Shown in pieces: positions 2,926 to 64,000 of a stretch of DNA of 64,000 bases. The notes under the pieces were generated by a model. That model worked only from the letters and a program-made list of their open reading frames with translations. It was not told the origin of the DNA and ran no database searches. The stretch lies in sequence record PZ386957.1, one strand, 5' to 3'. The first letter of the stretch is position 1; each line of letters opens with the position of its first letter. The position numbers and the translations under genes were made by a program. Origin of the DNA: a phage.

Positions 2926-2933
2926 TATAAATA
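2926..2933 (+). promoter_or_regulatory. late promoter box TATAAATA upstream of gene 34
   Basis: Exact TATAAATA 29 nt upstream of gene 34 ATG, followed by AGGAG RBS. Confidence 0.7.
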
Positions 2934-2961: not shown

Positions 2962-5900
2962 ATGGCAGATTTACTAAGTCAACATTTTAAGGCCACATTT
3001 GGCTTTGATGCTGGTAATGAAAAGGTCGTCAATGTAGCATTGGCTGATAAGAACACTCTCACCGATGCCGTTAACGTTGAATTTTTCAATTACCATAACG
3101 GTATTACGCAGTATGACACAACTCGCGGTTATGATCAATACGGTACTGCAATTTATCAAAACCGTCCTTACTATGCAAAGGAAAACATCGCGAAGCCAGC
3201 GGGAGAATTTGATCCGACTAAATGGCAAGCACTGCGTACTGATCCGCGTTGGGATTACATTGCAGCGACTTCCGGCGATACTCCCCTAAAGTCTGGTGAT
3301 TATATCGCTGCGGATTGCCAATTTGCAAACTTAACATTCTCCATGCCTACTAAGCCAGCCGAAGGCGATACTATAACAGTAAAAGATATCGGTGGCAAGT
3401 GCGGTGTAAACGAATTGTCGTTCCTCGCATCTGGTCATGAGTTCTATCATAATGGCACAGTATACAATAGAAAATGGTATTGCACAACTCCTTATTCGAT
3501 GATGTATTTCATCTTTGCTCGTGGACGTTGGCATGTATACCAGACTGGAACAGAGCCGCGCGGGGTATATGCACAGCCAGCTATTGATCCAATCCAGATG
3601 CAAAACGGAGATCAGGTATTCCGTCGCAGTTCATTAGGTAATATTGTATTGAAATTACCTAAGTTTGCAAATAACGGTGATATCATCAATACCACGGACC
3701 TGGATGGATTGACCGCAACAAATCACGTTACCATCAAGACACACGAAGGAGCGCCGGACCATTCTATTGGTGCAGTCGGTGTAAAAGAGATTGTAGGCAA
3801 ACGTAGTGGTCACGGTGTATTCATCTTTGATATTACTGAAAACTTATGGCGTGTTTGGGATGGTGATCAGTCTGTACGCTTAACGCCTATCGCATCGGAT
3901 ACCCGCTTGCTGCCTAACACGTATGTCGCTGTATTCGGTGATCGCAATGTCACTTTAACATTGCCTACTAACGTAGAGATCGGGGATCGTATTCAGGTCG
4001 CATTACAATACATGCACGGTACACAAACTTGCAAGATTGTAACGTCTGGGGCAGATACCAAAATTTTAATGCAGAAAAACATGCTGCAATTCCCTAAACG
4101 CAGCGAATATCCGTTTAATGGATCTGATACGTGGAAGGAAGTAACAGAGTTATCTTTCAGTGCTGCAACTGATTATGTTCCGTATCTGGAGTTCTCTTAT
4201 TCAGAAGGTGATGACGGTAAAAAACACTGGTTAGTAGCACATGCTCATCCTATCGTAGAACGGGTAGATCCGACTCGTAAAGATCGTGTGGGTGTAATTG
4301 CGCTGGCTACTCAAGACGAAACCAATAAAAACCATGAGCAGAATCCGAGCGACGAAGTAGCTGTTACCCCTCGTGTGTTGGCTAATAAAACCGCAACCGA
4401 AACACGACGCGGTATTGCAAGAATTGCTACGCAAGCAGAAACGCATCAAAATACTGGTTCTAACTTCCTTGATGATGTTATCGTTACACCTAAAAAATTA
4501 AATGATTGTGTTGCTACTGAATCACGTCGTGGTGTGCTGGAAATTGCAACGCAAGCAGAGACTAACGAAGGTTTAGACGATACCCGCGCTATTACTCCTA
4601 AGAAATTAGAAGAACGTCGCGCGAGTGAAACGTTGGCAGGGATTGCGGAAATTATTACGGCTGGCGGTAACGCTGCGGCAGTTCGTGGTCAAGCTGGTTC
4701 CGGTATCTACGATATCAATGACCATGCTAAAATCGTTACTCCCCATAACCTGAATGAAGTTAAAGCGACAGAAACATCTCGCGGTGTAGGTTATCTGGCA
4801 ACTGACGCAGAAGTACAGGGAGCGACCGAAGCAACACCGCAAGATGCATTGTTAATCACTACCCGTACTTTGACTAAGCGTATTGCAACAGAAACGCGCA
4901 CGGGGATCGCGGAAATCGCTACTCAAGCAGAAACCAATCAGGGGCAGCTTGATACCCATATTGTTACGCCGTTAAAACTCAATAACCGTCGTGCAACCGA
5001 AACGCTACATGGTCTAGCAGAAATCGCAACTCAGGTTGAATTTGACACAGGTCGAGATGATGCTCGCATTTCTACCCCATTGAAGATTAAAACCTTCTTT
5101 GAGAATGCACAGCGTTTGAAAGTAGATCCTACTCAGGGGCTTAACCTTACTGGCGATTTGTGGCAAGGTATTACTATTCGCGGTCTGGATGCTGACGAAG
5201 CAACTAAAGGCGTTGCTAAAGTCGCTACTGTCCAGTTAACCGACGCTGGTACTGATGATACCACAATCATTACGCCGAAGAAATTACAAGGTAAAAAAGC
5301 CACTGAAGTTAAAGAAGGTATTATTCGTGTTGGTACTCAAGCCGAAACCGTAGCAGGTATACTGGATGATGTGGCAGTATCGCCGAAGAACTTCAAATAT
5401 GTTGTTCAGGTTGATGACACATGGAAAGCAACGGAAGCGCGTCGCGGTTTTCTGAAAGTATCTACAAAAGAAAACTGTTTTGTTGGTAATGACCTTGCTG
5501 GTTCCACTCAAGCAATTGATCAATATCTGCATGATGGAATCGCAGTTACCCCGCGTGGTTTAAACTATGCACTGGCTAACTTCTTACCTAAAATGGCAAC
5601 CGCTCAGAATAGTTTGAAATTAGGCAACGTAGAAGCCGCTAAATGGGCGCGTAGAGACGTTGATCAGACTATCGAGGCCAATTACACGTTTAAGAAAAAT
5701 ATCAACGTGGAGGGTGATTTAGAGTGCTTAAAATCAGGTACGTTTGAAACACTGTATGTAACCAAAAATTCAACTGACGAGGCGAGCACCGGAAATCTGG
5801 TATTAGGTATCCGTGGTCAAAATGGTCATACCGGAATTGCATTGCATGGCACAACCGGAGATATTGAGAACTCATGGGCTATGCTCGTAGGCGGTACTGG

Positions 5901-6693
5901 TACTGGACAAATTACCAGCCCAACTGCAATTGCTTTCGGTGCGATTAGTGATATAGGGGCAATTGACCATTATGCATTCGCGGTAGAACGTAATGGTGAT
6001 GCGGCAGCATATCAGGACTTTATCGCAGGTCGTAACCTGTATGCTAAACAAGGTGGATTGTACATCGTCGATCACGAAAACGCAGCCATGACTTACTCAG
6101 GCGGTATTCTACATATTGGTCACGGTAAAGTCAATATTAAAGCTGGTTATCAGGAATTGACTACCGAAATCGCCGGACAAAAATATCAAATTGTCCATAA
6201 AGGAAACGCCGACGATGTTCTTGATCGTCAATTCGTCAAGAATGCTGGTGATACTATGGTCGGTAAACTGATTATGGACAATGCCGCAATTGTTTCTGTT
6301 AAGCATGAAGCTAGCGCAGCGACCGCCCCAGCCGTAGGTAATATCGGTTTCTGGAATATGCGCGTTACTACTCCATCAATCCGTGATTCTTATCCTGAAA
6401 AGAAAAACGGTACTTTGATGCAATGGGGTACTGATGCCGATGGTCTTACTCAGATGTGGTCGCCTGATGGTACACACAAACATTATATCCGTTCCGGTAC
6501 TGGTGGTCAATGGTCTGCGTGGGGTGAAATCTACACCAAACAGAACAAGCCTACCGCGCAGGAAATCGGTGCAATGGTTGCTGATGGCGGTTTAACCAAC
6601 TCTATGACCGTTCGAGATTGGGTTAAAATTGGTAACGTGAAAATCGTTGCAAATAACCTTACCCGGACAGTTGATTTTATTTGGGAAGATTAA
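2962..6693 (+). CDS. 34: gp34 long tail fibre proximal subunit
   Basis: 1243 aa; N-terminal NVALADK, repeated TETRRGIARIATQAET / TPKKLN motifs, C-terminal RDWVKIGNVKIV...FIWED as in T4 gp34. Confidence 0.92.
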   Translation: MADLLSQHFKATFGFDAGNEKVVNVALADKNTLTDAVNVEFFNYHNGITQYDTTRGYDQYGTAIYQNRPYYAKENIAKPAGEFDPTKWQALRTDPRWDYIAATSGDTPLKSGDYIAADCQFANLTFSMPTKPAEGDTITVKDIGGKCGVNELSFLASGHEFYHNGTVYNRKWYCTTPYSMMYFIFARGRWHVYQTGTEPRGVYAQPAIDPIQMQNGDQVFRRSSLGNIVLKLPKFANNGDIINTTDLDGLTATNHVTIKTHEGAPDHSIGAVGVKEIVGKRSGHGVFIFDITENLWRVWDGDQSVRLTPIASDTRLLPNTYVAVFGDRNVTLTLPTNVEIGDRIQVALQYMHGTQTCKIVTSGADTKILMQKNMLQFPKRSEYPFNGSDTWKEVTELSFSAATDYVPYLEFSYSEGDDGKKHWLVAHAHPIVERVDPTRKDRVGVIALATQDETNKNHEQNPSDEVAVTPRVLANKTATETRRGIARIATQAETHQNTGSNFLDDVIVTPKKLNDCVATESRRGVLEIATQAETNEGLDDTRAITPKKLEERRASETLAGIAEIITAGGNAAAVRGQAGSGIYDINDHAKIVTPHNLNEVKATETSRGVGYLATDAEVQGATEATPQDALLITTRTLTKRIATETRTGIAEIATQAETNQGQLDTHIVTPLKLNNRRATETLHGLAEIATQVEFDTGRDDARISTPLKIKTFFENAQRLKVDPTQGLNLTGDLWQGITIRGLDADEATKGVAKVATVQLTDAGTDDTTIITPKKLQGKKATEVKEGIIRVGTQAETVAGILDDVAVSPKNFKYVVQVDDTWKATEARRGFLKVSTKENCFVGNDLAGSTQAIDQYLHDGIAVTPRGLNYALANFLPKMATAQNSLKLGNVEAAKWARRDVDQTIEANYTFKKNINVEGDLECLKSGTFETLYVTKNSTDEASTGNLVLGIRGQNGHTGIALHGTTGDIENSWAMLVGGTGTGQITSPTAIAFGAISDIGAIDHYAFAVERNGDAAAYQDFIAGRNLYAKQGGLYIVDHENAAMTYSGGILHIGHGKVNIKAGYQELTTEIAGQKYQIVHKGNADDVLDRQFVKNAGDTMVGKLIMDNAAIVSVKHEASAATAPAVGNIGFWNMRVTTPSIRDSYPEKKNGTLMQWGTDADGLTQMWSPDGTHKHYIRSGTGGQWSAWGEIYTKQNKPTAQEIGAMVADGGLTNSMTVRDWVKIGNVKIVANNLTRTVDFIWED

Positions 6694-6696
6694 TTT

Positions 6697-6716
6697 AAGG
6701 GGGCTTTGCCCCCTTT
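6697..6716 (+). terminator. GC hairpin after gene 34 (weak terminator / attenuator)
   Basis: GGGGGCTTTGCCCCC followed by TTT then GGAG RBS of gene 35. Confidence 0.4.
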
Positions 6717-6725
6717 GGAGTTATT

Positions 6726-7865
6726 ATGTCAGAAGAAATCGAATTGCGCAATACAGGAATTAAATTTGCACATTTTGATCAAGATTCCGTAACATTTAAC
6801 AGCATATCAGAAAACAACTCTGTGATGTATAAGCTGGAAGTGCGCGGATCTAATAGTGATTCGACTAAACCAGCAAGGATCAGATTCAATGGCGTAGAGA
6901 TTACTGGCACTGGCTATCAAGTCGGTTTGAATTTTAAAGTGTTGACTCCAACCGGACAACTCCACGAAGAAAAGATATTCTATGGACGTGGTGCAGCCTT
7001 AGCAATGCGCGATTATCTCAATACCCTGAAAGGGGATTATATCATCGCAATGGCCTCGCATGGTAAATTGACACCTGATCCAGTAAATGATGAAATATTC
7101 AATCGATTAGGATCAGTATCATATCCAAATCATATTCTATTACAACAAATGCCGCAAGTTAGTTATGCAGCAATCTATTCTACTAAAATGGGTAAAGTCG
7201 TTTGTGAAGGTATGCAAGCATCACACGGAGAAGGGCAAGATTCATCTATACAAATAGAGAAAGTCTATGATACAATAGATGATTTGGCAATTACCGGAAT
7301 CCCTCAACGATTCTTAGATTATCCAGTGGAATATGTTAGCGAAGACGCAGAACACTTTGAATTAGTACAATGGCCTAAAAACGAAATATCCGCGCCTATG
7401 ACAGACTTTAATATCAAGGCAGGAGATAAGCTATCTATTTCATTTGAGCTATTCAGAGATGATGCAGCGGCTTCTGCTGGCGTGACCGCAAGGTTCTTCC
7501 ACAATTATTTTCTGGAAGGAACTTATAAAACTGGTGTACGTTACAATGCAACAAAACGCGATCAGTGGGAAAGGTTTGATGCGGTGTATACTGTACCGGA
7601 AGGAGTTGATAGTGTAGTAACTGGCTGTATCCGGTATCCAACTAACTCCAGTGAAGGGATTGTTAAGGTGCGCAATATTCTGATTACCCAGATTAGCGGA
7701 GTAGTCAAAACCGATGGTCCTACTTCCTTTGGTGTTAACGGTGTTAGAACTACAAGCATTCAAGATAACGGTGACTTCACTAATCCGGTTATGAGTCTGC
7801 TTAAATTACCGCGAGACAACAAACATCTTACTTCCAATAACTTTAAAGAATTTGATGTTGATTAA
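6726..7865 (+). CDS. 35: gp35 tail fibre hinge protein
   Basis: 379 aa ORF between 34 and 36, T4 gp35 size and position. Confidence 0.7.
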   Translation: MSEEIELRNTGIKFAHFDQDSVTFNSISENNSVMYKLEVRGSNSDSTKPARIRFNGVEITGTGYQVGLNFKVLTPTGQLHEEKIFYGRGAALAMRDYLNTLKGDYIIAMASHGKLTPDPVNDEIFNRLGSVSYPNHILLQQMPQVSYAAIYSTKMGKVVCEGMQASHGEGQDSSIQIEKVYDTIDDLAITGIPQRFLDYPVEYVSEDAEHFELVQWPKNEISAPMTDFNIKAGDKLSISFELFRDDAAASAGVTARFFHNYFLEGTYKTGVRYNATKRDQWERFDAVYTVPEGVDSVVTGCIRYPTNSSEGIVKVRNILITQISGVVKTDGPTSFGVNGVRTTSIQDNGDFTNPVMSLLKLPRDNKHLTSNNFKEFDVD

Positions 7866-7869
7866 CCAA

Positions 7870-7900
7870 AAAGCCGATCCTTGTGGTCGGCTTAATTTTT
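7870..7900 (+). terminator. rho-independent terminator after gene 35
   Basis: AAGCCGATCC-TTG-TGGTCGGCTT hairpin followed by AATTTTTAT. Confidence 0.65.
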
Positions 7901-8030
7901 ATGGGAATGGTTAAAACTTAACCAAAACGGTGATCTTTATTATCCTGAAAGATACACGTTTGATTAATAATTAATCATCAAACAAATAGTGCCTCCGGCA
8001 CTCGCGAAGCGATAATTTTTTACTTAATTT

Positions 8031-8038
8031 TATAAATA
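8031..8038 (+). promoter_or_regulatory. late promoter box TATAAATA upstream of gene 36
   Basis: Exact TATAAATA about 33 nt upstream of gene 36 ATG, with GAGGAAAT RBS. Confidence 0.7.
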
Positions 8039-8070
8039 CTCAGTATTATAACTAGATTTGAGGAAATCTT

Positions 8071-9561
8071 ATGGCAGATTTGAAACATGGATCTACAGTT
8101 GGTGGATCACCGATTTGGACTCAAGGTAACTTGACAATCCAACCAGCGGGAGATCAACTATTCTATAAAGGTCATAAAATATACACTGCTTCCGACCGAC
8201 CTTCTGCTGGTGATGTTGATTCGGTTAGTGCTACCGAAGGTGGTACATTTCAAAGACCAGTTCATTTCAATGAAGGATTGAGTGTAGGTAGCGCATCGGC
8301 AGGTGAGACAAAAAAGAACGGATTATTCCCCGGTCAAAGCGATGCTGCTAATTTTGACGGTGTAAGTTGGGGTTTGCATTCATGGAAGTCAATTGGCTTT
8401 GTAAATGCCCGTGATGGCGTTATAATGGCATATATTGACACAACCACAGGTGATTTTAATACTAAAGGTTCCATTAATGGTGTAAACGTCAAAGACTCAG
8501 GTCAACGCGTCTATAGTCCGGTTAATAAGCCGACAAATAATGATTTGGATTTAGTTTCTCGTCGCGGTGATACTCTCACCGGAACTTATAATCTAAACAC
8601 TGTTACCGTTAAATTGTCTGTTGATTCTAAATTGGTGGCGAGAGATCGTGATTTAATTAACTTTGATGCAAGCAAGATTTATTATGGGAATACCGTAGAT
8701 TCTTTGGTATTCCGTAGTAAAGCAGAGCCATTAATTTATGTTAATGGTAAAGAAGGTAAATTCTATCACACCAATAATAAACCGACTAAGGCCGACGTTG
8801 GTCTAGGTAATGTCACCAATGATGCACAGGTTAAGCGTGCCGGTGATATCATGGAAGGTAATTTGCAAGCGCCTAGAATGTTGGCTACAAATGATCCGGC
8901 TGGTCCTAATGAACTAGTTAGATTAAGCTATTTTGAGAAAAAATCAATGGTAGCCAATCCAACGATCATCGGTACTGCTGATTGGAATACACTTATTGAC
9001 CGTGGTATCTATCGTGTAGAGAATGCTGGTTCTGGTACTAATATACCCTCAGATAGTTATTACTATGGGGTGTTAATGATCTATCGACCAGAAGATGCAA
9101 CGGGAACTCGTCGAATTGTTCAAGTTTATTACCCAGAGTCGATTAATCATCCGGTTTGTTGGCGTTCTTGTTCTGGTACTTCGTGGACTGCATGGAACTA
9201 TGTAGATCACCGTAAATTGGCTGATGCTCGCTATGTTAATGTTACTGGCGATAAGATGTCTGGTGCTTTATCTGTTCCTGCTGGGAATGGTGTTCGTACT
9301 ATAAGCACTAACTATAACGGTGATAACTATTACGTTGGTCTTAATAGCTTAGACGGCGTTGCTATGATCGAGCGGGTGAGCGACCTTAAGGCAAAAGAGC
9401 GTTTAGGTATTACTCATGATTCTAAGATTGTATTTGTTCGTTCTAAGAACAACACACAAACACAAGAAACATTAGAATTATATCATGAAGGCCATAAACC
9501 TACTCCTGCCGAAGTTGGCGCTGTTCCGCTTAACGCAGTAATTGATTTCGGTACTTTCTAA
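8071..9561 (+). CDS. 36: gp36 tail fibre protein (enlarged, 496 aa)
   Basis: N-terminus MADLKHGSTVGGSPIWTQGN...PAGD resembles T4 gp36 N-terminus; position between 35 and 37. Confidence 0.75.
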   Translation: MADLKHGSTVGGSPIWTQGNLTIQPAGDQLFYKGHKIYTASDRPSAGDVDSVSATEGGTFQRPVHFNEGLSVGSASAGETKKNGLFPGQSDAANFDGVSWGLHSWKSIGFVNARDGVIMAYIDTTTGDFNTKGSINGVNVKDSGQRVYSPVNKPTNNDLDLVSRRGDTLTGTYNLNTVTVKLSVDSKLVARDRDLINFDASKIYYGNTVDSLVFRSKAEPLIYVNGKEGKFYHTNNKPTKADVGLGNVTNDAQVKRAGDIMEGNLQAPRMLATNDPAGPNELVRLSYFEKKSMVANPTIIGTADWNTLIDRGIYRVENAGSGTNIPSDSYYYGVLMIYRPEDATGTRRIVQVYYPESINHPVCWRSCSGTSWTAWNYVDHRKLADARYVNVTGDKMSGALSVPAGNGVRTISTNYNGDNYYVGLNSLDGVAMIERVSDLKAKERLGITHDSKIVFVRSKNNTQTQETLELYHEGHKPTPAEVGAVPLNAVIDFGTF

Positions 9562-9565
9562 TTTT

Positions 9566-9591
9566 AGCGGGGATTCTTTCCCCGCTTTTTC
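9566..9591 (+). terminator. rho-independent terminator after gene 36
   Basis: AGCGGGGA-TTCTTT-CCCCGCT followed by TTTTT. Confidence 0.65.
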
Positions 9592-9632
9592 TAAATAATA
9601 CTATTCTAATAACTGTTTAAGGATTTTATAAA

Positions 9633-12389
9633 ATGGCAGATTTAAGCAGAATCCAATTTAAACGCACTAGCACAGCCGGACGTAAACCTGATGCGAATAT
9701 TCTAACTCCGGGTGAACTTGCTATTAACCTAGCGGATCGAGAACTATATACAAAAGATGATGACAATAATGTAATTACTTTGGGACACTTTCGCGGTGAA
9801 TTGCCAACTGATGCAAATTTAGATAATTATGGACCTACTGGTAAGTTTACTGGTATTTGGTCTAAAGCAACTTCAACCAACGCTCAGCCAACACATAAAT
9901 TCCCAGAAGATAATGCTGTGGGTGTATTGGAAGTATTTGCCGCTGGACAATTTGCCGGAACTCAGCGTTATACTGTTCGGTCTGGTAACGTCTATATTCG
10001 TTCCTTATCTGCTAAATGGAATGGTGTAGATGGTCCGTGGGGTGCGTGGAGGAATATTCAAACTGGTACACGACCACTATCAACCACATTGGACTTGAAT
10101 ACTTTAGGTGATGCATCTCATTTTGGTTTATGGAGGAATAGTTCAAGTTCTATTGCATCATTTTCTCGAAATTACCCAGAAGAAGGCGGTCTCGCGCAAG
10201 GTCTTTTAGAAATTTATGAAGGCGGTAACTATTCGCGCACACAGCGTTATACTACACGTATGGGTGTTGTGTATGTTCGTTGTCTTGCTGGTGCATGGGA
10301 TTCAGAAGCACCGAATTGGGGAGCGTGGCAACAAGTTGGTAACGTGACACCAGCGACTTTCTATGACGGAGACCTTAATAATTTTCGTTCTCCTGGTTTA
10401 TATAATATTTTAGGCACTGATGCCGTTATTAACTGTCCTACAGGGGAAGGGCTACCAGCCGTTATTGTTGGTTTATTGGAAGTTAAACAACGTGCTTCTG
10501 GTGGTGCAATTTTCCAAAAATTCACTACTGCCGGAACGGGAACTACTACCCGTGGACGTATTTTCGAACGTGCGATGACCAATAATATTTGGGGTGCATG
10601 GAACGAAGTATATACGTCTTATTCTCTGCCAATTACTTTGGGTATGGGTGGTGTTAAAACTCAGTTAACCGCGCTTGACTGGCAAACTTTCGATTTTGTT
10701 CCTGGTGCTATGTATAGCGTACCGTTGAACAAGATGACCAATATACCAGCAAATATGGATTGGGGAACTATTGATGGAAACCTAGTAATGCTGGCAGTAG
10801 GTCCGAGCGAGCATACCGGAACAGGTCGCACCGTTCAGGTTTGGCGTGGTACTGTAAGTCAAGCGAACTACCGTTATTTTGTCGTTCGTGTCGCCGGTAA
10901 TCCAGGAAACAGGACTAACACTTGTCGCCGTGTTGTTGTGGAAGATGGTCGCCATACATGGACAGCACAACAAGATTTTAATGGTGCTGTTAACTTCGGT
11001 AGCTCAACAACGTTTAAATCAACTACGACATTTAATACAGAAGTTAAATTCCGCTCATCTAACGCATTTCGTATGTATGGTGGTAACTTCGGTGCATTCA
11101 TGCGCAATGACGGTGAAAGTCTTTATATTCTTTCCACCAACGAAAATGATCAAGATGGAAACTTTAACACCAATAGACCTTTCCGATATCAATTGAAAAC
11201 TGGCGATGTTACTCTTGGTGGAACTAGCGGTGCTAACGCTTTAGTATTAAAAGGTGGTTCTCTTGCTGCTACCTTTGGTGGTGACATTAACTTGAGTAAA
11301 GGATATTTGACGTTTGAGGCTGGGCGATTATATTCTCGCGATTACTTCCGGTTTAACCATTGGGGTGATAGTAATAATGCGCGTGATAACATTATTCAGT
11401 TAGAAGATAGTCAAGGAGCACATTTTTCTACTGAACGTCAAATGTCAAACGGTGCAATTAAAACTAAATTCTTTGGACAAGTTGAGTCGAATGGACGGTT
11501 AACAATCAATGCACCAGGTGATGCTATTGTATTATCAACAACTGCTGGTAATTCTTTGCATATTCGCGGTGACGTAGGCGGGAATAATAACTGGTATATT
11601 GGTAAGGGTGGTGCTGATAATTCGCTAGCATTTTATAGCTATGCTACTCAGGCGGCAGTACATATCACAAACAACGGTGAGATTGCGTTAAACCCGCAAA
11701 ATACCGCAGTGGTTAACGTTAACCGCGACCGTGTGCATATCAATGGAACAGGTTGGGTTGCCCGACATTCCGGCGCATGGGTTGGCCAATGGAGAGAAGA
11801 AGCACCATTATTCGTTGATCACGGTAACGTTGGAGAGGATAGCTATTATCCGATTTTGAAAGGAAAAAGCAACATCACGAATCAAGGATATACTACTGCC
11901 GTAGATTTTGGTATACGTCGTGTTCCTAGCAAATGGGGTCAAGCAATTATTCGAGTTGCTTCTGCGGAGGCTTCACCTGATGCTGGTCATCCTCAAGCTG
12001 TATTTGAATTTCATCATGACGGATTATTTTATTCGCCAGGTAACGGTAATTTTAACGATGTGTATATTCGTTCTGATTCTCGTCTTAAGATCAATAAAGA
12101 AGAATTGGAAGATGGTGCAGTTGAAAAGGTATGTAGACTGAAAGTTTATACCTACGATAAAGTTAAGTCTATTAAAGATCGTAGTGTTATTAAACGTGAA
12201 GTTGGTGTTCTTGCTCAAGATCTTGAAAAAGAATTGCCCGAAGCTGTATCTAAAGTTGAAGTTGATGGATCTGATGTTCTGACAATTTCTAACTCTGCTG
12301 TGAATGCTCTTTTAATTAAGGCTATTCAGGAAATGAGCGAAGAATTGAAAGCCGTTAAAGCTGAACTAGCGGAACTTAAAAAGAATTAA
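9633..12389 (+). CDS. 37: gp37 distal long tail fibre with C-terminal intramolecular chaperone (S74-like) domain
   Basis: N-terminus MADLSRIQFKRTSTAGRKPDANILTPGELAINL resembles T4 gp37; C-terminal ~110 aa (SDSRLKINKEE...VGVLAQDLEKELPEAV...coiled coil) resembles self-cleaving chaperone domains of tail fibres/endosialidases. Confidence 0.85.
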   Translation: MADLSRIQFKRTSTAGRKPDANILTPGELAINLADRELYTKDDDNNVITLGHFRGELPTDANLDNYGPTGKFTGIWSKATSTNAQPTHKFPEDNAVGVLEVFAAGQFAGTQRYTVRSGNVYIRSLSAKWNGVDGPWGAWRNIQTGTRPLSTTLDLNTLGDASHFGLWRNSSSSIASFSRNYPEEGGLAQGLLEIYEGGNYSRTQRYTTRMGVVYVRCLAGAWDSEAPNWGAWQQVGNVTPATFYDGDLNNFRSPGLYNILGTDAVINCPTGEGLPAVIVGLLEVKQRASGGAIFQKFTTAGTGTTTRGRIFERAMTNNIWGAWNEVYTSYSLPITLGMGGVKTQLTALDWQTFDFVPGAMYSVPLNKMTNIPANMDWGTIDGNLVMLAVGPSEHTGTGRTVQVWRGTVSQANYRYFVVRVAGNPGNRTNTCRRVVVEDGRHTWTAQQDFNGAVNFGSSTTFKSTTTFNTEVKFRSSNAFRMYGGNFGAFMRNDGESLYILSTNENDQDGNFNTNRPFRYQLKTGDVTLGGTSGANALVLKGGSLAATFGGDINLSKGYLTFEAGRLYSRDYFRFNHWGDSNNARDNIIQLEDSQGAHFSTERQMSNGAIKTKFFGQVESNGRLTINAPGDAIVLSTTAGNSLHIRGDVGGNNNWYIGKGGADNSLAFYSYATQAAVHITNNGEIALNPQNTAVVNVNRDRVHINGTGWVARHSGAWVGQWREEAPLFVDHGNVGEDSYYPILKGKSNITNQGYTTAVDFGIRRVPSKWGQAIIRVASAEASPDAGHPQAVFEFHHDGLFYSPGNGNFNDVYIRSDSRLKINKEELEDGAVEKVCRLKVYTYDKVKSIKDRSVIKREVGVLAQDLEKELPEAVSKVEVDGSDVLTISNSAVNALLIKAIQEMSEELKAVKAELAELKKN

Positions 12390-12431
12390 GGAAAACTCCC
12401 AGGGAAGGGAAACTACTAAGGAGAAACGGCT

Positions 12432-12671
12432 ATGGTCTATAATATCGTCATTGGTGCCTTGTCTAGTTTCGGAATGAAACTATTATCAAAGTTAATTAGT
12501 GAAAAGATGCTCACTAAAATTTTCTTCTATTGCGCTCGTCGTCTTGCGGCATATACCAATACGCCAATTGATGATCGTTTCGTGGAAGAACTTTATAAGG
12601 AGTTTAATAAAGATCAGTCAGAAGATAGCAACGAGCAGAATAAAACGGGTGACAGTCAAGTACCTAAATAA
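12432..12671 (+). CDS. hypothetical small protein with hydrophobic N-terminus (79 aa)
   Basis: Strong RBS AAGGAGAAACGGCT before ATG; occupies the T4 gene 38 position between 37 and t; no similarity to gp38 recognised. Confidence 0.5.
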   Translation: MVYNIVIGALSSFGMKLLSKLISEKMLTKIFFYCARRLAAYTNTPIDDRFVEELYKEFNKDQSEDSNEQNKTGDSQVPK

Positions 12672-12705
12672 TGGTACACTGTCATAGTTATTTTTAGGGC
12701 ATTAT

Positions 12706-13362
12706 ATGCAAGTTTCTGAAAAAGAGAAAGACTTTGCTATCTCAAATGTCCTGCGCGCTATTTTCACAACTAAAAGCACGGAGTTGCTCGTACTTCGTGT
12801 TTTTGCTGCCGTTGTGTTGTCTATATTAGCATTTGTCGTTTATAGCAAAAACGAGTTGTTTGCGCTTTATAAAGAAACTCGTTATGAGACTTATGCTCAC
12901 GTTCTCCAGGTAGAAAAAGACCGCAATTTTGATAATGCAGCACAGGAGCAGTTACAGATAGTTCATGTGTCGGCAGATGCCGATTTTTCTGCTGTTTTTA
13001 GCTTTCGTCCAAAAAACCTAAACTATTTCGTTGATTTGGTGGCATATGAAGGAAAGCTACCGCATACAATCGATGAAAAGAATTTAGGCGGATTCCCTAT
13101 CAATAAAACGAGTGAAGAATATCGTAGGCATCTTTTAGGTAAATCCTATTTTACCGATAAAGATTTCCAGTATATTCCGTCGAGGGAGAAAAAATTAGAG
13201 AATATCGATATAGGATTCATGTATTCTTGTCCTATATTCAATCTCGATAATGTCTATTCTGGTAGTATCGCCATTGCATGGAAGAATAAACCAGATATTG
13301 ACATTGAGAATTTAGATACTCTTTGTAGTCAATCTGCCAGAATCCTCGGAAGGATTAGATAA
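12706..13362 (+). CDS. t: holin T
   Basis: 218 aa; YKETRYETY, EQLQIVHVSADADFSAVFSFRPKNLNYFVD, YEGKLPHTIDEKNLGG, MYSCPIFNLDNVYSGSI, SARILGR match remembered T4 holin T. Confidence 0.95.
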   Translation: MQVSEKEKDFAISNVLRAIFTTKSTELLVLRVFAAVVLSILAFVVYSKNELFALYKETRYETYAHVLQVEKDRNFDNAAQEQLQIVHVSADADFSAVFSFRPKNLNYFVDLVAYEGKLPHTIDEKNLGGFPINKTSEEYRRHLLGKSYFTDKDFQYIPSREKKLENIDIGFMYSCPIFNLDNVYSGSIAIAWKNKPDIDIENLDTLCSQSARILGRIR

Positions 13363-45487: not shown

Positions 45488-47171
45488 TCATTTCAGTGAA
45501 TCGCCCACGTTTAACCATCTTGAGATGACGGCTAAAATCATCAGGGTTATGGTCACGATGGCTGATAATATACACGTTATCATCTAACTTGTCAATGATG
45601 GAATCAAGTGCTTTTACGCCTTGAACGTCCGTAGCCCCATCATAAATTTCGTCGAGTACCAACAAAGAAATATTAGTACCAGATACTTTACCAGCAACAT
45701 CACGCCACGTAAAGAGCATCGCAAGATCAATACGTGCTTTTTCGCCTTGACTGAATGATGTATACGAAAACGATTCACGCCCCCGTGATTTAATTGTTTC
45801 GTTAAACTCTTCATCTAACGTAAAGATATAATCCGCTTCCATGATATCAAGATAATACGCAATCCGATCATTGAAATATGGAATATATTTCTTGACGATA
45901 GACGCCTTAACACCGGAATCCTTCAACATTTCTGTCACAAATCCACGATGATATTTTTCAAGAACTAGCTTTGATTTTTCATTAGTGATCTCTACCAGTT
46001 CGTGTTCCAGTTTAGCAAGTTCTTCGGAATTGTCAACCCTTTCTTTTTGCAATTCCTGCATTGCTTTCTGAATCTGTTTAGCACGACCTACAGATGCCGT
46101 TAAATTCGCTCTCTGCGACTCTATAGCGCGTTTAATTTCCAAGACCTTAGTTTGTGCTGTCTGGAAAGAATTGGCTTTCTCTGCGTATTCTACGCGTTTC
46201 TCGTCAATCAGAGACAGTTTATGTTCCGCTTGTGCTTTTTGTTCGCGTACAGCTTGATCATTACCTTGAATGATCGGTTGTGTGCACGTAGGACAGACCC
46301 CGCCTTTCTCATGCATATGAATAACACGGTCAAAGTTCTGGATCTGCGCACCAATCTGTGCGATAGCCGTATTAATTTTAGCCAATGCCGCGCTAGGATC
46401 TTCCGGCATAACAACAGCCAATAGCTCATCGGTCAAGCGAGTTTCTTCGGCTTTAAATGCTTTAGCCGATTCTACCTCTTTATCATACATATTCTGTAAA
46501 CGCTGGAGATTCTCGGCACTCGCCTTGCCAGCGTCTTCTATGTACTTTTTATGAGTGTTGATTTGTTGCTGAACGTGATTAGCTTTCATTTCCTGCATTT
46601 GGATATTCTGGGTTATCTCGCGCACATACGCTTTATTCAGTTTATCCATTTCGCCTAGCGTAGCAATATCAAGCAAATCCTCGACCAGTTTACGGCGACC
46701 CGCTGCCGGAAGACTCATAAACGGAACATAACCAGCAGTGCCTAAAACAACGATCTGTTTAAAGCTGGCTAGGTTCATGCCTATGATACCTTCAAAATAT
46801 TCCTGAAAGTCTTTGGTGCTTGCGCTCTCGTCGATCTTTTGACCGTCGCGATGCACTTCGAATACTTCCGGTTTTTGACCACGTTTGATGTAAAACTCTT
46901 TCCCGTCCAGTTCAAACCAGACTTCGACTAACAGTTTCTTTTTGTTGACGCTGTTAATCAATTGGCCTTTCTTGATACTACGAAACGGTTTACCGAACAA
47001 CACAAAGCAAAGCGCCTCGATCATTGTTGATTTACCAGCACCGTTAACACCAGTGATTAGTGTCTTTTTGAATCCGTCTAGCTGAATCTCAACAGGTTCA
47101 GCACCCACGCTCATTATATTTTGATAGCGCAAGGTTTTAAAATTTAACTTTGCCATTAATCCACTCCGCAA
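45474..47171 (-). CDS. 46: recombination endonuclease subunit gp46 (SbcC/Rad50-like ATPase)
   Basis: 565 aa; Walker A GVNGAGKST, long central coiled coil with CPTC zinc hook, C-terminal signature/Walker B LLVLDE. Confidence 0.9.
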   Translation of the reverse strand: MRSGLMAKLNFKTLRYQNIMSVGAEPVEIQLDGFKKTLITGVNGAGKSTMIEALCFVLFGKPFRSIKKGQLINSVNKKKLLVEVWFELDGKEFYIKRGQKPEVFEVHRDGQKIDESASTKDFQEYFEGIIGMNLASFKQIVVLGTAGYVPFMSLPAAGRRKLVEDLLDIATLGEMDKLNKAYVREITQNIQMQEMKANHVQQQINTHKKYIEDAGKASAENLQRLQNMYDKEVESAKAFKAEETRLTDELLAVVMPEDPSAALAKINTAIAQIGAQIQNFDRVIHMHEKGGVCPTCTQPIIQGNDQAVREQKAQAEHKLSLIDEKRVEYAEKANSFQTAQTKVLEIKRAIESQRANLTASVGRAKQIQKAMQELQKERVDNSEELAKLEHELVEITNEKSKLVLEKYHRGFVTEMLKDSGVKASIVKKYIPYFNDRIAYYLDIMEADYIFTLDEEFNETIKSRGRESFSYTSFSQGEKARIDLAMLFTWRDVAGKVSGTNISLLVLDEIYDGATDVQGVKALDSIIDKLDDNVYIISHRDHNPDDFSRHLKMVKRGRFTEMNVNI

Positions 47172-47400
47172 TCACACATTCCATAATATTAAATGCTAAC
47201 ACATCTTCATCAATGTTGTAAACACTTGCCGCCTTCACTTTAACTAATGTGTCTCTGCGATCTGGCAGCATGATCACATAATCCAGTGTCGCAGGGTCAT
47301 ATGTCATAAAGGGATCAATGTAAATCCCTTTATTCAATGCCAGATATTCGCGAAGACCTTCTATAACCCTGTGTCTAAGGTAGGTCATCGATAGAATCAT
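47137..47400 (-). CDS. hypothetical protein (87 aa)
   Basis: ORF track; between 46 and 47. Confidence 0.4.
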   Translation of the reverse strand: MILSMTYLRHRVIEGLREYLALNKGIYIDPFMTYDPATLDYVIMLPDRRDTLVKVKAASVYNIDEDVLAFNIMECVIAEWINGKVKF

Positions 47401-47981
47401 TTTAGTTTATGTTCCTCTAAAAATTCTTCAATTTCACCTTGCAGGTCTTCCGCTTGCTGTTCCAGAATATCGCGAAACTCACCTACACTCAAGCGGTAAT
47501 CACATTTCACCAGTCGATGCGGGAGAATATACCCTTTATACATCGTCTCTGACGCTTCCAGGAATACCCCGCTATGCATAACAGAGATCCACCCTGTTAA
47601 CGTCAAAGGTGTATTCGGAAAATAATATTTGCTGGATTGTTTCCACTGGACGAAAGCACCATATACAATCGGATTATATTCACCGACAACACTCTTAATA
47701 ATGGATTCTACCCTGTCTTTTACAAAGTCGCCAATGTCCATAGTCACCATCAACTCTTGTGGGTGAATCACTTTAAGGTAACGACGATAATCATCATCAT
47801 AGTACAGCTTAACCACTGGTCCACCCCACATAGACGAAATATTCGCTTTCAGATATCCATAAATCGGATTCTTATCATAGGATTGTTTTAGCGTGTAGTT
47901 ATGCAACAGCGTAATAAAATGTTGCATCACCTCAACCGCGCCCGTAATCGTATTCATAATATGTCCCCCTTTCAATTTCAT
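47397..47981 (-). CDS. hypothetical protein (194 aa)
   Basis: ORF track. Confidence 0.45.
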   Translation of the reverse strand: MKLKGGHIMNTITGAVEVMQHFITLLHNYTLKQSYDKNPIYGYLKANISSMWGGPVVKLYYDDDYRRYLKVIHPQELMVTMDIGDFVKDRVESIIKSVVGEYNPIVYGAFVQWKQSSKYYFPNTPLTLTGWISVMHSGVFLEASETMYKGYILPHRLVKCDYRLSVGEFRDILEQQAEDLQGEIEEFLEEHKLK

Positions 47982-62288: not shown

Positions 62289-62582
62289 TTAACCATGAAT
62301 CTTGTTTTTGACTACAAAGGATCGGAACTCATCAAAGCCACCAATATAATCACCATCATAGAAAATCTGCGGCATGGTGGCAATAACTTCTACCCCTGCG
62401 CGATCCTGAATATCGGCAATGATAGAATCAATCTTTACAGGGCGACCGTTTTCGTCCACACCATCATTAACCGGAATGTAGATGTAAGGGATCTTACGCG
62501 CTTCACAAAGGCGCTTTGCATTCTGGCAATACTTACAGTTGTAACCTTCAAAACCAAAAATTTCTACCATGTTATACCTCAA
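62289..62582 (-). CDS. nrdC: thioredoxin/glutaredoxin NrdC
   Basis: 97 aa; CKYCQNAKRL active site and MPQIFYDGDYIGGFDEF match remembered T4 NrdC. Confidence 0.88.
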   Translation of the reverse strand: MRYNMVEIFGFEGYNCKYCQNAKRLCEARKIPYIYIPVNDGVDENGRPVKIDSIIADIQDRAGVEVIATMPQIFYDGDYIGGFDEFRSFVVKNKIHG

Positions 62583-63391
62583 TCTACGTTAGTTACATAA
62601 ACTTCTTGCGTATCAGAAGACTTGCCACCTGAACGATCTAGGCAATAGGTCTTATTCAACAGGACGCAGTTTAAATCATTCCGCTTGATAAAATCAAGCA
62701 AATGGTTGTTAACTTTCCCTTTGTGGTGAGTAACATTGCTTAATCCAAACTTAGTACCGCTAGACATTAATGATTCTATCCACATGTAGAATTTAATCTC
62801 TTCTTCTTCACTCCAGAACTTATTATATTCTGCCGACGTGATCCAATATGGCGGGTCCAAATAAACGAAATCACCGGGCAAGATCTCGATCTCGTCATAA
62901 CGACCAGACGTAAAATTGATTCGACCGTCTTTGTTTTCTTCTTTAAAATTCAGGACACGCTCTACCGCGTTTTCGTTAAAAGTCCGGCGACCAAAATTAG
63001 CATTAAATTCGCCCTTTCGGTTATGGCGGTTAATGTTGCTAAAACTATGCTGAATCAGAACAAACAGAGATAGCGGATCTGGATTCTCGTTATACTTCTT
63101 GCGGAATGCCATATAAGAATCTTTATCATCACGAGACAAACCATTCTCGGCAATAATCCGCTTGATCGTAGAAACCGGATCAGGGCACTCGTCAATCGCT
63201 TTGTAAGCATCAATTAAGCGGTGATCATAGTCATTAGCCAGAACATCCCCTTCGACGTACAGAGACACGCTCAAACCGCCACAAAAGGCATCGACAAAGC
63301 GGTTATAGTGCTTAGGGAAATACTTACTAACACCTGGCAATAACTTTTCCTTATTGCCAGTATAGGGAATTAAACCTAATGCTTTCTTCAT
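62579..63391 (-). CDS. dam: DNA adenine methyltransferase Dam
   Basis: 270 aa; AYTGNK-like N-terminus (PYTGNKEKLLP), RFVDAFCGGLSVSL (motif I), DFVYLDPPY (motif IV), YNKFWSEEEE match remembered T4 Dam. Confidence 0.9.
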   Translation of the reverse strand: MKKALGLIPYTGNKEKLLPGVSKYFPKHYNRFVDAFCGGLSVSLYVEGDVLANDYDHRLIDAYKAIDECPDPVSTIKRIIAENGLSRDDKDSYMAFRKKYNENPDPLSLFVLIQHSFSNINRHNRKGEFNANFGRRTFNENAVERVLNFKEENKDGRINFTSGRYDEIEILPGDFVYLDPPYWITSAEYNKFWSEEEEIKFYMWIESLMSSGTKFGLSNVTHHKGKVNNHLLDFIKRNDLNCVLLNKTYCLDRSGGKSSDTQEVYVTNVD

Positions 63392-63822
63392 TATCCCTTC
63401 CTCAAATAAGTTCTTTCAATTTCTACCAGTTCGAAAAATTCATCCCAATCACACGGAAAATTGCAGTTTCCGAAATGATCCTCTTTGTAAAGTTCTTTAC
63501 CGGATGGCAGCTTAATATCTGTTACGCTGTAGTATCCGCAACAATCGCAATCACCATCTGTATATTCTGTTTTGGTAGGAATATCCATCATTGCCAGATA
63601 CAAAGGTACATCGTCTTGCTCAAAGTTCATGTAACCTTCATGGTCGAATGAAACAAAGTTATCATCGCCACCGAAAGGGATATAGTGGTCATAATCGGTT
63701 ACAGGTTGACCGTGCAATTCCCATTCTACAATTTTAACATTACCGCTAAACTTGATACCCATAATTTCAACAAGAAAATGAGTATCGTCAATGTAAATCT
63801 TACTAGGAGTTGGATAAACCAT
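63391..63822 (-). CDS. hypothetical Cys-rich acidic protein (143 aa)
   Basis: ORF track; DGDCDCCGYY and GNCNFPCDW Cys clusters; leader GAGGATTATATA-ATG. Confidence 0.45.
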   Translation of the reverse strand: MVYPTPSKIYIDDTHFLVEIMGIKFSGNVKIVEWELHGQPVTDYDHYIPFGGDDNFVSFDHEGYMNFEQDDVPLYLAMMDIPTKTEYTDGDCDCCGYYSVTDIKLPSGKELYKEDHFGNCNFPCDWDEFFELVEIERTYLRKG

Positions 63823-63832
63823 TATATAATCC

Positions 63833-64000
63833 TCATATCTCAGAGAATAGAATCTCTGTTAGCTTCACTGACTGCTCTCTGAATGTTAGCGTATACTCGA
63901 AAGGAAAGTCAACACCCAATTTCAGAAGAGAATAGCCTACCGCCTCTTTATGCTTGTCGGTTAGGGCGATCCTAACCAATTCCCGTTGAATCTCTTTAGG
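63833..64000 (-). CDS. hypothetical protein, C-terminal fragment (5' end beyond window)
   Basis: Open minus-strand frame to window edge ending ...FREQSVKLTEILFSEI with stop at 63833; its stop abuts the RBS of the next gene. Confidence 0.3.
   Translation of the reverse strand, partial: PKEIQRELVRIALTDKHKEAVGYSLLKLGVDFPFEYTLTFREQSVKLTEILFSEI

What the first reader, a model, noticed from the sequence alone, without database searches (positions are those of the whole stretch)
8071..12671. Tail-fibre locus: enlarged gp36, gp37 with built-in chaperone domain, no gp38-like adhesin
gp36 is 496 aa, about twice the T4 size. gp37 ends in a ~110-residue module typical of self-cleaving intramolecular chaperone domains. 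The slot between 37 and t holds only a 79-aa ORF with a hydrophobic N-terminus rather than a gp38-type adhesin or chaperone. Receptor recognition is therefore probably by the gp37 tip itself after autoproteolysis, a different solution from both T4 and T2.
Basis: partly seen in the sequence, partly recalled or inferred. Interest (0 to 1): 0.5.

Follow-up and report, generated by a model that had tools for sequence, protein, structure and literature searches.

The report
RB49-type tail-fibre locus, adhesin gene elsewhere
This is the ordinary long-tail-fibre gene cluster of an RB49-like (Krischvirus) coliphage; the adhesin gene that seems to be missing normally lies about 55 kb away in this genus, just past the end of the window, so it is probably not a new way of recognising hosts.

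Summary
gp36 is 496 aa. gp37 is 918 aa and ends in a Peptidase_S74 intramolecular chaperone (predicted cleavage R813^S814, 105-aa module). Only a 79-aa ORF lies between gene 37 and holin t, and no gp38 homologue occurs anywhere in the 64-kb window.

The interpretation mostly fails, for four reasons.

1. The S74 module is the normal T2/T6/S16 arrangement. This gp37 is 78-88% identical to the gp37 of T6, fPS-65, KarlGJung and G5211, all of which carry a gp38 adhesin. It keeps the DVYIR strand described as the gp38 docking surface.
2. The window is a Krischvirus. In 44 of 44 database records of that genus with an empty slot, a bona fide gene 38 lies about 55 kb downstream of t. By synteny that site is 3.8 kb beyond the window's right end, so it cannot be seen.
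3. The 79-aa ORF belongs to the PM2 P18/gp l lysis-protein family, not to an adhesin family.
4. The 496-aa gp36 is a trait of the whole genus.

What is new is minor. This gp37 is a recombinant: a T6-family body joined to an RB49-type C-terminal tail, with the crossover at nt 12326-12344. That combination is otherwise seen only in one metagenomic lineage.

The parts
2926..2933 (+). T4-type late promoter motif TATAAATA, 29 nt upstream of the gene 34 ATG
   Evidence: One of only two TATAAATA in the 64-kb window. Its position relative to the start codon was read from the sequence.
2962..6693 (+). gp34, proximal half-fibre (1243 aa)
   Evidence: phrog_972 full length, E 0.
6726..7865 (+). gp35, proximal hinge connector (379 aa)
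   Evidence: phrog_1154, E 1e-121.
8031..8038 (+). Second late promoter motif TATAAATA, 33 nt upstream of the gene 36 ATG. It probably drives 36-37-ORF79-t.
   Evidence: That it acts as a promoter is inferred by analogy with T4.
8071..9561 (+). gp36, enlarged distal hinge connector (496 aa, 54 kDa), the size found throughout the genus
   Evidence: phrog_16472 matched over 1-496 of 496. Pfam Phage_T4_gp36 at aa 58-164. The gene is 1491 nt in G5211, kvi, JSE, KFS-EC and MIZ4. It is 83-86% identical to these.
9566..9586 (+). GC-rich hairpin followed by a T-run, between genes 36 and 37
   Evidence: Terminator-like scan. Function not tested.
9633..12071 (+). Predicted mature gp37 (aa 1-813, 88.7 kDa): T6-family distal half-fibre
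   Evidence: 88% identical to G5211 gp37, 83% to KarlGJung and 78% to T6. Per-50-aa identity to G5211 is 70-100% up to aa 900. Pfam Gp34_trimer at aa 457-518.
12057..12071 (+). DVYIR strand (aa 809-813), the last residues before the cleavage site and the predicted gp38 docking surface
   Evidence: The same motif occurs in T6, fPS-65, KarlGJung, G5211, kvi, MIZ4, JSE, KFS-EC and L012. Its docking role is proposed in PMC7917993.
12072..12386 (+). Intramolecular chaperone (Peptidase_S74) domain, aa 814-918. S814 is the predicted nucleophile and K819 its partner.
   Evidence: Pfam PF13884 at aa 814-872, 42.3 bits. phmmer alignment to the S16 gp37 chain 6f45_A, with SDRRIKK aligned to SDSRLKI. Residues confirmed.
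12326..12344 (+). Recombination crossover inside the chaperone domain (codons QEMSEE). Upstream the sequence is G5211/T6-type; downstream it is RB49/JSE-type.
   Evidence: Informative sites in the three-way nucleotide alignment. The last 18 aa are 100% identical to JSE and 33% to G5211. blastn breakpoints at 12351 and 12378.
12432..12671 (+). 79-aa ORF (RB49p252 homologue), a member of the PM2 P18/gp l family and a probable accessory lysis protein
   Evidence: phrog_402, E 5e-20. Its 68%-identical homologue in L012 carries a precomputed Pfam PF26925 Phage_PM2_Gpl hit. hhalign against PM2 gp l gives probability 79%, E 1.6e-5. Literature.
12706..13362 (+). Holin t (218 aa)
   Evidence: Pfam Phage_holin_T, E 1e-61. 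97-99% identical to other Krischvirus holins.

Best explanation
The window comes from a Krischvirus (RB49/JSE-like T4-superfamily coliphage), and this is its standard long-tail-fibre operon.

The proposed mechanism is as follows.
- gp37 trimerises with the help of its own C-terminal S74 chaperone domain.
- That domain cuts itself off between R813 and S814.
- Cleavage exposes a flat tip formed by three DVYIR strands.
- A separate gp38 adhesin then docks on the tip through its conserved tryptophan-bearing N-terminal domain and recognises the outer-membrane receptor.

In this genus gene 38 is usually not next to gene 37. It lies about 55 kb downstream of t, on the opposite strand, which by synteny is 3.8 kb beyond the right end of this window.

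The 79-aa ORF in the slot is a PM2-P18-like accessory lysis protein, paired with holin t.

This particular gp37 is a natural recombinant. It has a T6-family body, which elsewhere always travels with an adjacent gp38, joined within the conserved end of the chaperone domain to an RB49-type tail. The adjacent gp38 was therefore left behind.

Shown here: the domain content, the motif, the recombination junction, the synteny and the census of the genus. Inferred: autocleavage, gp38 docking, and the presence of the displaced gene 38 in this genome.
For: - Genus: 94% nucleotide identity to Krischvirus genomes over 19 kb.
- S74 domain and cleavage motif.
- gp37 homology: the window's gp37 is 78-88% identical to the gp38-associated gp37 of G5211, KarlGJung, fPS-65 and T6. 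All of these are S74-positive.
- Displaced gene 38: JSE, RB49, Phi1, GEC-3S, KFS-EC and others carry a gp38 with Pfam GP38 E 1e-72 and Gp38_N E 6e-18 at a distant locus. This is documented in PMC3157838 and PMC12032242.
- Census: the 44 Krischvirus records without a gp38 in the slot are exactly the 44 with the displaced gene. The 15 records with an empty distant locus all have an insert in the slot.
- Synteny: window nt 64000 corresponds to L007 position 13570, and gene 38 lies at L007 8986-9762, so it would start 3.8 kb past the end.
- Precedent for the pairing: KFS-EC combines a T6-family tip (71% identical to the window's over the last 170 aa) with a displaced gp38 and no adjacent one.
- Docking is independent of tip type: PaulHMueller has an unrelated tip ending in NVYIR, next to a gp38 that is 91% identical to JSE's.
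- Junction.
- Independent occurrence: the same layout is found in metagenomic contigs L012/L013, from two samples.
Against: - The displaced gene 38 cannot be seen. The window ends too early, and the source genome was not found in any searchable collection.
- The window's T6-type gp37 most resembles that of Krischviruses in which gp38 is adjacent and the distant locus is empty. If the backbone were of that kind, this phage would have no gp38 at all.
- Three Krischviruses (UPWr_E1, G2248, G37-3) have both gp38 sites empty, so a gp38 at one of the two sites is not universal in the genus. UPWr_E1 is among the window's closest relatives overall.
- Autocleavage and docking are inferred from homology only.
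Confidence: 0.8

Rival explanations
1. The phage has no gp38 anywhere. After the S74 domain cleaves itself off, the gp37 tip binds the receptor directly, as in the T5 L-shaped fibre or endosialidase tailspikes.
For: - No gp38 in the slot or in the 64-kb window.
- The gp37 body is of the type whose Krischvirus carriers have an empty distant locus.
- Three Krischviruses lack gp38 at both canonical sites.
- S74-bearing fibres that bind receptors by themselves do exist (T5 pb1; from general knowledge, and the T5-like receptor-binding domains discussed in PMC11990801).
Against: - The tip keeps the DVYIR docking strand shared by all gp38-using relatives.
- The last 170 residues before the cleavage site are 69-83% identical to those of gp38-using fibres.
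- All 44 genus members with an empty slot encode gp38 distally.
- The three gp38-less relatives have a replacement three-ORF cassette in the slot, which the window lacks.
- The expected site of gene 38 lies outside the window, so its absence has not been observed.
Confidence: 0.12
2. The gp38-less layout is an artefact. A mixed population of RB49-type and G5211-type Krischviruses was mis-assembled across the conserved ~70-nt stretch of the chaperone domain, or the sequence comes from a defective deletion variant that is not a viable phage.
For: - The crossover falls in a stretch nearly identical between the two types, the sort of place where assemblers switch haplotypes.
- No phage among the 50,697 database records has this combination.
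Against: - Independent contigs from two samples (L012, L013; 80% nucleotide identity to the window) show the same colinear layout.
- The reading frame is intact.
- Both flanks are about 95% identical to known phages rather than 100%, so neither side is a copy of a known co-assembled genome.
- Recombination at such conserved motifs is the documented mode of fibre evolution in T-even phages (Tetart 1998, cited in PMC3157838).
Confidence: 0.05

Closest known systems
Long-tail-fibre locus of Krischvirus phages RB49, Phi1, JSE and GEC-3S (pseudo-T-even phages; Desplats 2002, Trojet 2011)
   Same: - Gene order 34-35-36-37-small ORF-t.
- 496-aa gp36.
- gp37 ending in an S74 domain with the tail ...LKAVKAELAELKKN (identical over the last 18 aa).
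- The same small ORF (94% identical) and holin (97%).
- No gp38 in the slot.
   Different: The body of gp37 (aa ~50-900) is unrelated to the RB49/JSE type (10-26% identity over most 50-aa bins) and belongs to the T6 family. Whether the distant gene 38 is present cannot be seen.
T2/T6/S16-type distal fibre: gp37 with an autocleaved chaperone domain plus a gp38 adhesin cap (PDB 6F45; Dunne 2018; fPS phages, PMC7917993)
   Same: - gp37 is 78% identical to T6 gp37 and 80% to fPS-65 gp37.
- Same DVYIR^SD.RLKIN cleavage and docking motif.
- S74 domain alignable to S16 6f45_A.
   Different: - The adjacent gp38 gene is missing.
- The C-terminal 18 residues of the chaperone are RB49-type instead of ...TPFFTKIARKISKYFKF, which ends 118 of the 120 closest homologues.
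- The chaperone module is 105 aa rather than 113 aa.
Krischviruses with an adjacent T6-like gp37-gp38 cassette (G5211, G2494, kvi, MIZ4/5, FL04/15/20, KMB43, LF73P4)
   Same: The closest gp37 is G5211's, at 88% identity. The flanks are about 95% identical on both sides of the junction.
   Different: Those phages have about 900 nt more (the gp37 tail plus gp38) where the window has 26 nt of RB49-type tail. Their distant gene 38 locus is empty.
Self-sufficient S74-bearing fibres and spikes (T5 L-shaped fibre pb1, K1F endosialidase)
   Same: A C-terminal S74 chaperone is removed after trimerisation.
   Different: In those proteins the domain just upstream of the cleavage site is itself the receptor-binding or catalytic tip. 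Here the upstream sequence is that of gp38-capped fibres. No sequence similarity outside the S74 domain was detected.
PM2 lysis protein P18 (gp l) family, for the 79-aa ORF
   Same: Small protein of comparable length and pattern (KLL.E..I.KV....A..LA..T.T..DD.F). hhalign probability 79%. Pfam PF26925 on a 68%-identical homologue. Homologues in RB49 and Felix O1 were reported by Krupovic and Bamford (PMC1950889). It lies next to a holin gene.
   Different: Pairwise BLAST to PM2 gp l is not significant (E 0.29). The window protein has a 20-aa acidic C-terminal extension. A role in lysis has not been tested in any tailed phage as far as I found.

Membership tests
Peptidase S74 / intramolecular chaperone domain (PF13884) | Profile match above the curated threshold, located at the C-terminal end of a trimeric fibre protein | tested here: met
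   42.3 bits against a cut-off of 22, at aa 814-872 of 918. Aligned to the S16 gp37 chaperone domain in 6f45_A.
Peptidase S74 / intramolecular chaperone domain (PF13884) | Nucleophilic Ser at the cleavage site with a Lys five residues downstream (Ser911/Lys916 in endoNF; recalled from MEROPS and Schulz 2010, not checked here) | tested here: met
   S814 and K819 in SDSRLK. They align to S^SDRRIK of S16, whose cleavage site is reported in PMC7917993.
Peptidase S74 / intramolecular chaperone domain (PF13884) | Actual autoproteolytic release of the domain | not testable with these tools
   Needs SDS-PAGE or mass spectrometry. Expected products are 88.7 kDa and 11.7 kDa from a 100.4-kDa precursor.
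T2/T6-type gp37 (gp38-capped distal fibre) | Full-length homology to T6 or T2-type gp37 | tested here: met
   78% identity over 95% of the length to T6 gp37 (P0114); 88% to G5211.
T2/T6-type gp37 (gp38-capped distal fibre) | Conserved terminal beta-strand before the cleavage site, which forms the gp38 docking surface | tested here: met
   DVYIR at aa 809-813, identical in T6, fPS-65, KarlGJung and G5211. The docking role is taken from PMC7917993.
T2/T6-type gp37 (gp38-capped distal fibre) | gp38 adhesin gene immediately downstream of gene 37 | tested here: not met
   Only 42 nt separate the gp37 stop from the 79-aa ORF. There is no gp38 homologue in the window.
RB49-type (Krischvirus) fibre locus with displaced gene 38 | Order 36(496 aa)-37(S74)-small ORF-t with nothing else in the slot | tested here: met
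   Colinear in a single piece with JSE, RB49, Phi1 and GEC-3S across the 37-ORF-t junction.
RB49-type (Krischvirus) fibre locus with displaced gene 38 | GP38-family gene between the RB49p078 and RB49p080 homologues, about 55 kb downstream of t | not testable with these tools
   The site maps 3.8 kb beyond window nt 64000. The source genome was not retrievable.
gp38 adhesin (PF05268 GP38 + PF21721 Gp38_N), tested on the 79-aa ORF | Profile match, Trp-bearing N-terminal attachment domain, glycine-rich motifs | tested here: not met
   No Pfam hit at E<=1. No glycine-rich motifs in the sequence. True gp38 proteins score E 1e-69 to 1e-72 in the same search.
T4-type gp37 (needle tip; gp38 acts as chaperone only) | gp37_C needle domain and strong gp37_trimer repeats at the C-terminus | tested here: not met
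   No PF12604 hit, and gp37_trimer only at 17.7 bits, below its cut-off. By contrast the Felix O1 fibre scores E 1e-33 and 5e-91 for these two families.
PM2 P18/gp l lysis-protein family (PF26925), tested on the 79-aa ORF | Profile-level similarity to PM2 gp l | tested here: inconclusive
   hhalign probability 79%, E 1.6e-5 over 42 columns. Precomputed PF26925 hit on a 68%-identical homologue. The local Pfam copy gave no hit and pairwise BLAST gave E 0.29. Published statement of RB49 and Felix O1 homologues.

The most novel reading that the evidence does not exclude
This phage, and the L012 metagenomic lineage, truly encode no gp38. They would then use the naked tip of a T6-family gp37, exposed by S74 cleavage, as the receptor-binding surface. 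A fibre built to be capped by an adhesin would have been re-purposed to bind on its own, after a single recombination removed the cap gene.
Probability: 0.1. Interest if true: 0.55.

Novelty: new member of a known kind. Interest (0 to 1): 0.2.

Why it matters
Mostly as a caution. In RB49-like phages an empty slot after gene 37 does not mean that there is no adhesin, so predicting host range from the fibre locus alone would be wrong.

The recombinant gp37 adds a small data point. T6-family fibre shafts and RB49-type (distantly encoded) gp38 adhesins appear to be freely combinable, because docking needs only the conserved DVYIR tip. This is useful for engineering fibre and adhesin swaps.

If the phage really lacked gp38, it would be a natural test of whether a capped fibre can bind on its own.

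Tried and rejected
- Finding the source genome, to look past the window's end. Exact look-ups of gp37, gp36 and the last complete ORF found nothing. A 60-mer from the window's end found nothing in IMG/VR or the metagenome collection.
- Looking for a complete phage genome with the same layout, using the L012 contig as query. None was found.
- Using similarity at the right-hand end to guess the backbone type. JSE 95.5%, G5211 95.3% and MIZ4 94.3% do not discriminate.
- Assigning the 79-aa ORF through the local Pfam and NCBIfam libraries. No hits.
- Considering the 79-aa ORF as a lipoprotein or receptor-masking protein. Rejected, because it has no lipobox.
- Considering it as a T4-type gp38 chaperone. 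Rejected, because there is no similarity and the ORF is also present in phages that have gp38.
- Predicting the structure of the gp37 tip. Not attempted: only near-identical homologues may be submitted, and the protein is an obligate trimer.
- Two paper searches failed on query syntax.
Full report
**What is in the window**

The region holds a T4-superfamily long-tail-fibre operon on the + strand:
- gp34, 2962-6693
- gp35, 6726-7865
- gp36, 8071-9561 (496 aa)
- gp37, 9633-12389 (918 aa)
- a 79-aa ORF, 12432-12671
- holin t, 12706-13362

PHROG and Pfam assignments agree with these names. The only two T4-type late-promoter motifs (TATAAATA) in the 64 kb lie 29 nt before gene 34 and 33 nt before gene 36.

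Over 19 kb of replication genes the window is about 94% identical to Krischvirus genomes (UPWr_E1, MIZ4, kvi, JSE and relatives). It is therefore an RB49-like phage that is not itself in the 50,697-record phage collection.

- gp36 is 496 aa in every Krischvirus examined, against 216 aa in a T4-like phage. Only aa 1-70 and 251-294 align to the T4-like protein. The enlargement is a trait of the genus, not of this phage.
- gp37 has Pfam Peptidase_S74 at aa 814-872, at 42.3 bits against a cut-off of 22.
- It aligns to the chaperone part of S16 gp37 (PDB 6f45_A), with SDSRLKI opposite SDRRIKK.
- The predicted cleavage is R813^S814, with K819 five residues further on. This gives an 88.7-kDa mature fibre and an 11.7-kDa, 105-aa released module.
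- The slot before t holds only the 79-aa ORF. No gp38 homologue exists anywhere in the window.

**The S74 domain is not an alternative to the T2 solution; it is the T2 solution**

The closest homologues of this gp37 are G5211 (88%), KarlGJung/Bas37 (83%), fPS-65 (80%) and T6 itself (78%). All are annotated with PF13884. All have a gp38 adhesin gene immediately downstream where I looked.

For S16 and the fPS phages, the published model has three steps. The last ~113 residues are autocleaved. This exposes a flat tip made of three copies of the last beta-strand. The tryptophans of the gp38 N-terminal domain then plug into that tip (PMC7917993). The strand named there, DVYIR, is present unchanged at aa 809-813 of the window's gp37. 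It is also present in every relative examined.

**In this genus the adhesin gene lives elsewhere**

[quoted passage not shown] Lutz et al. note the same for Krischviruses FL37 and FL38. They also show experimentally that Krischvirus gp38 variants determine use of Tsx, OmpF or OmpA (PMC12032242).

I confirmed this directly. JSE carries a 258-aa protein with Pfam GP38 (E 1e-72) and Gp38_N (E 6e-18) at nt 47101-47877, about 56 kb downstream of t on the other strand.

A census with two DNA probes shows a strict reciprocal pattern.
- The 44 Krischvirus records with nothing gp38-like after gene 37 are exactly the 44 that have the distant gene 38.
- The 15 records with an empty distant locus all have an insert after gene 37.
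- In MIZ4 and G5211 the distant gene is precisely absent between the RB49p078 and RB49p080 homologues.

The window's right end (dam 62579-63391, and a 143-aa ORF 63391-63822) aligns to JSE such that gene 38 would begin 3.8 kb after nt 64000. The window therefore cannot show whether the gene is there. Its absence from the window is expected either way.

**What is particular to this phage**

Per-50-residue comparison shows that gp37 is G5211/T6-type from aa ~1 to ~900 (70-100% identity). Over the same range it is unrelated to the RB49/JSE type for most of its length. The last 18 residues are 100% JSE-type and 33% G5211-type.

At nucleotide level, informative sites place the switch within 12326-12344. 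This lies in a stretch of the chaperone domain that both types share.

Relative to G5211, about 900 nt (the YFKF-type tail of gp37 plus gp38) are replaced by 26 nt of RB49-type tail.

G5211, MIZ4 and KFS-EC still carry the last codons of an RB49-type gp37 (aaaaagaattaagg) downstream of their inserts. The RB49 layout is therefore ancestral in the genus, and the adjacent cassettes are secondary.

The simplest history for the window is a patch replacement of the gp37 body in an RB49-type recipient. The right crossover fell in the chaperone domain, leaving the donor's gp38 behind and the recipient's distant gp38 untouched.

No phage record has this combination. However, metagenomic contigs from two samples (L012, L013; gp37 P0008, 82% identical) are colinear with window 8935-12773, with no gp38. 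The layout is therefore real and recurrent.

**Is a T6-family tip compatible with a distantly encoded gp38?**

Two natural cases say yes.
- KFS-EC has a tip 71% identical to the window's over the last 170 residues, similar to the 69-72% of T6, kvi and MIZ4. It has no adjacent gp38 and does have the distant gp38.
- PaulHMueller (Tequatrovirus) has an unrelated gp37 tip that still ends in NVYIR^SD. It sits next to a gp38 91% identical to JSE's distant one.

Docking thus appears to need only the terminal strand and the conserved Gp38_N domain (alignment).

**The 79-aa ORF**

It is conserved (92-97% identity) in Krischviruses with and without an adjacent gp38, so it does not substitute for gp38. 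It has no GP38 signature.

Its 68%-identical homologue in L012 carries a precomputed Pfam PF26925 (Phage_PM2_Gpl) hit. A five-sequence profile matches PM2 gp l with hhalign probability 79%, E 1.6e-5. Krupovic and Bamford reported homologues of the PM2 lysis protein P18 in RB49 and Felix O1 (PMC1950889). [quoted passage not shown]

Lying directly upstream of holin t, the ORF is best read as an accessory lysis protein. That function has not been tested in tailed phages.

**Residual uncertainty**

I could not retrieve the source genome.

The gp37 body resembles that of phages whose distant locus is empty.

Three Krischviruses (UPWr_E1, G2248, G37-3) have neither gp38 site filled. Instead they carry three paralogous ~100-aa ORFs after gene 37. 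A Krischvirus without gp38 at either canonical site is therefore possible, but the window has no such replacement cassette.

I put 0.8 on the gp38-elsewhere model, about 0.1 on a truly gp38-less fibre and about 0.05 on an assembly or defective-variant artefact.

**Verdict**

The anatomy is correctly described. It is the known RB49-type fibre locus, and the proposed new mode of receptor recognition is probably an artefact of the window boundary. The only novelty is a new recombinant gp37 allele. Interest is low (0.2).

Noticed in passing
L016 5603-6503 (UPWr_E1); L017 4093-4999 (G37-3); also G2248: A third fibre-tip layout in Krischvirus. Three tandem paralogous ~100-aa ORFs (N-termini MGYWV, MAGWI, MGWWV; shared W.FDIPNGW motif; 25-40% identical to each other) lie between an S74-bearing gp37 and the 79-aa ORF. 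Both canonical gp38 sites are empty. They match no Pfam family, and at most a marginal PHROG hit (phrog_18834, E 0.0005, for the first ORF only). ORF 2 occurs in only 3 of 50,697 phage records. They might form a heterotrimeric cap that replaces gp38. Only nt 1-62145 of UPWr_E1 was scanned for gp38.
   Followed up: partly
L005 5547-5870 (KFS-EC): The 107-aa ORF in the KFS-EC slot is a fusion relic. Its first ~90 residues are 91% identical to ORF 1 of the three-ORF cassette, and its end is identical to a 15-residue piece of ORF 3. This shows past exchange between layouts.
   Followed up: partly
L001 10376-10489 and 10438-11175 (G5211): The G5211 gp38 is annotated as two overlapping ORFs. The 37-aa piece holds the N-terminal attachment domain (MAVVGVPGWIGSS...). 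This is either a frameshift in the record or a sequencing error.
   Followed up: no
L010 3992-4186 (Felix O1 ORF78): The Felix O1 homologue of the 79-aa ORF (47% identical) also lies immediately downstream of the distal tail-fibre gene. That fibre is T4-type (gp37_C, no S74). The small ORF therefore keeps its position after the fibre gene in unrelated myoviruses.
   Followed up: partly
window 2962-9561: gp34, gp35 and gp36 are only about 83-88% identical in protein to every known Krischvirus. The holin is 97-99% identical and the replication genes about 94% identical in DNA. The whole fibre is evenly diverged, consistent with a new species or faster evolution of the fibre genes.
   Followed up: partly
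window 9566-9586: An eight-pair GC-rich hairpin followed by TTTTTCT lies in the 71-nt gap between genes 36 and 37, inside what should be a single late transcript.
   Followed up: no
P0090 (E. coli chromosomal contig, 228 kb): A 1154-aa E. coli protein with a T6-family tip (79% identical over 95% of the query) and an S74 domain. Its motif is DVQIR^SDERLK and it has a coiled-coil tail. It has 18 member sequences and is named 'pyocin knob domain-containing S74 family peptidase'. It is possibly a prophage or tailocin fibre sharing this tip module.
   Followed up: no
L001 ~11176-11195; L006 ~6390-6405; L005 ~6000-6015: Krischviruses with inserts after gene 37 retain the last codons and stop of an RB49-type gp37 (aaaaagaattaagg) just downstream of the insert. 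This marks a shared right-hand insertion junction and implies that the RB49 layout is ancestral in the genus.
   Followed up: yes
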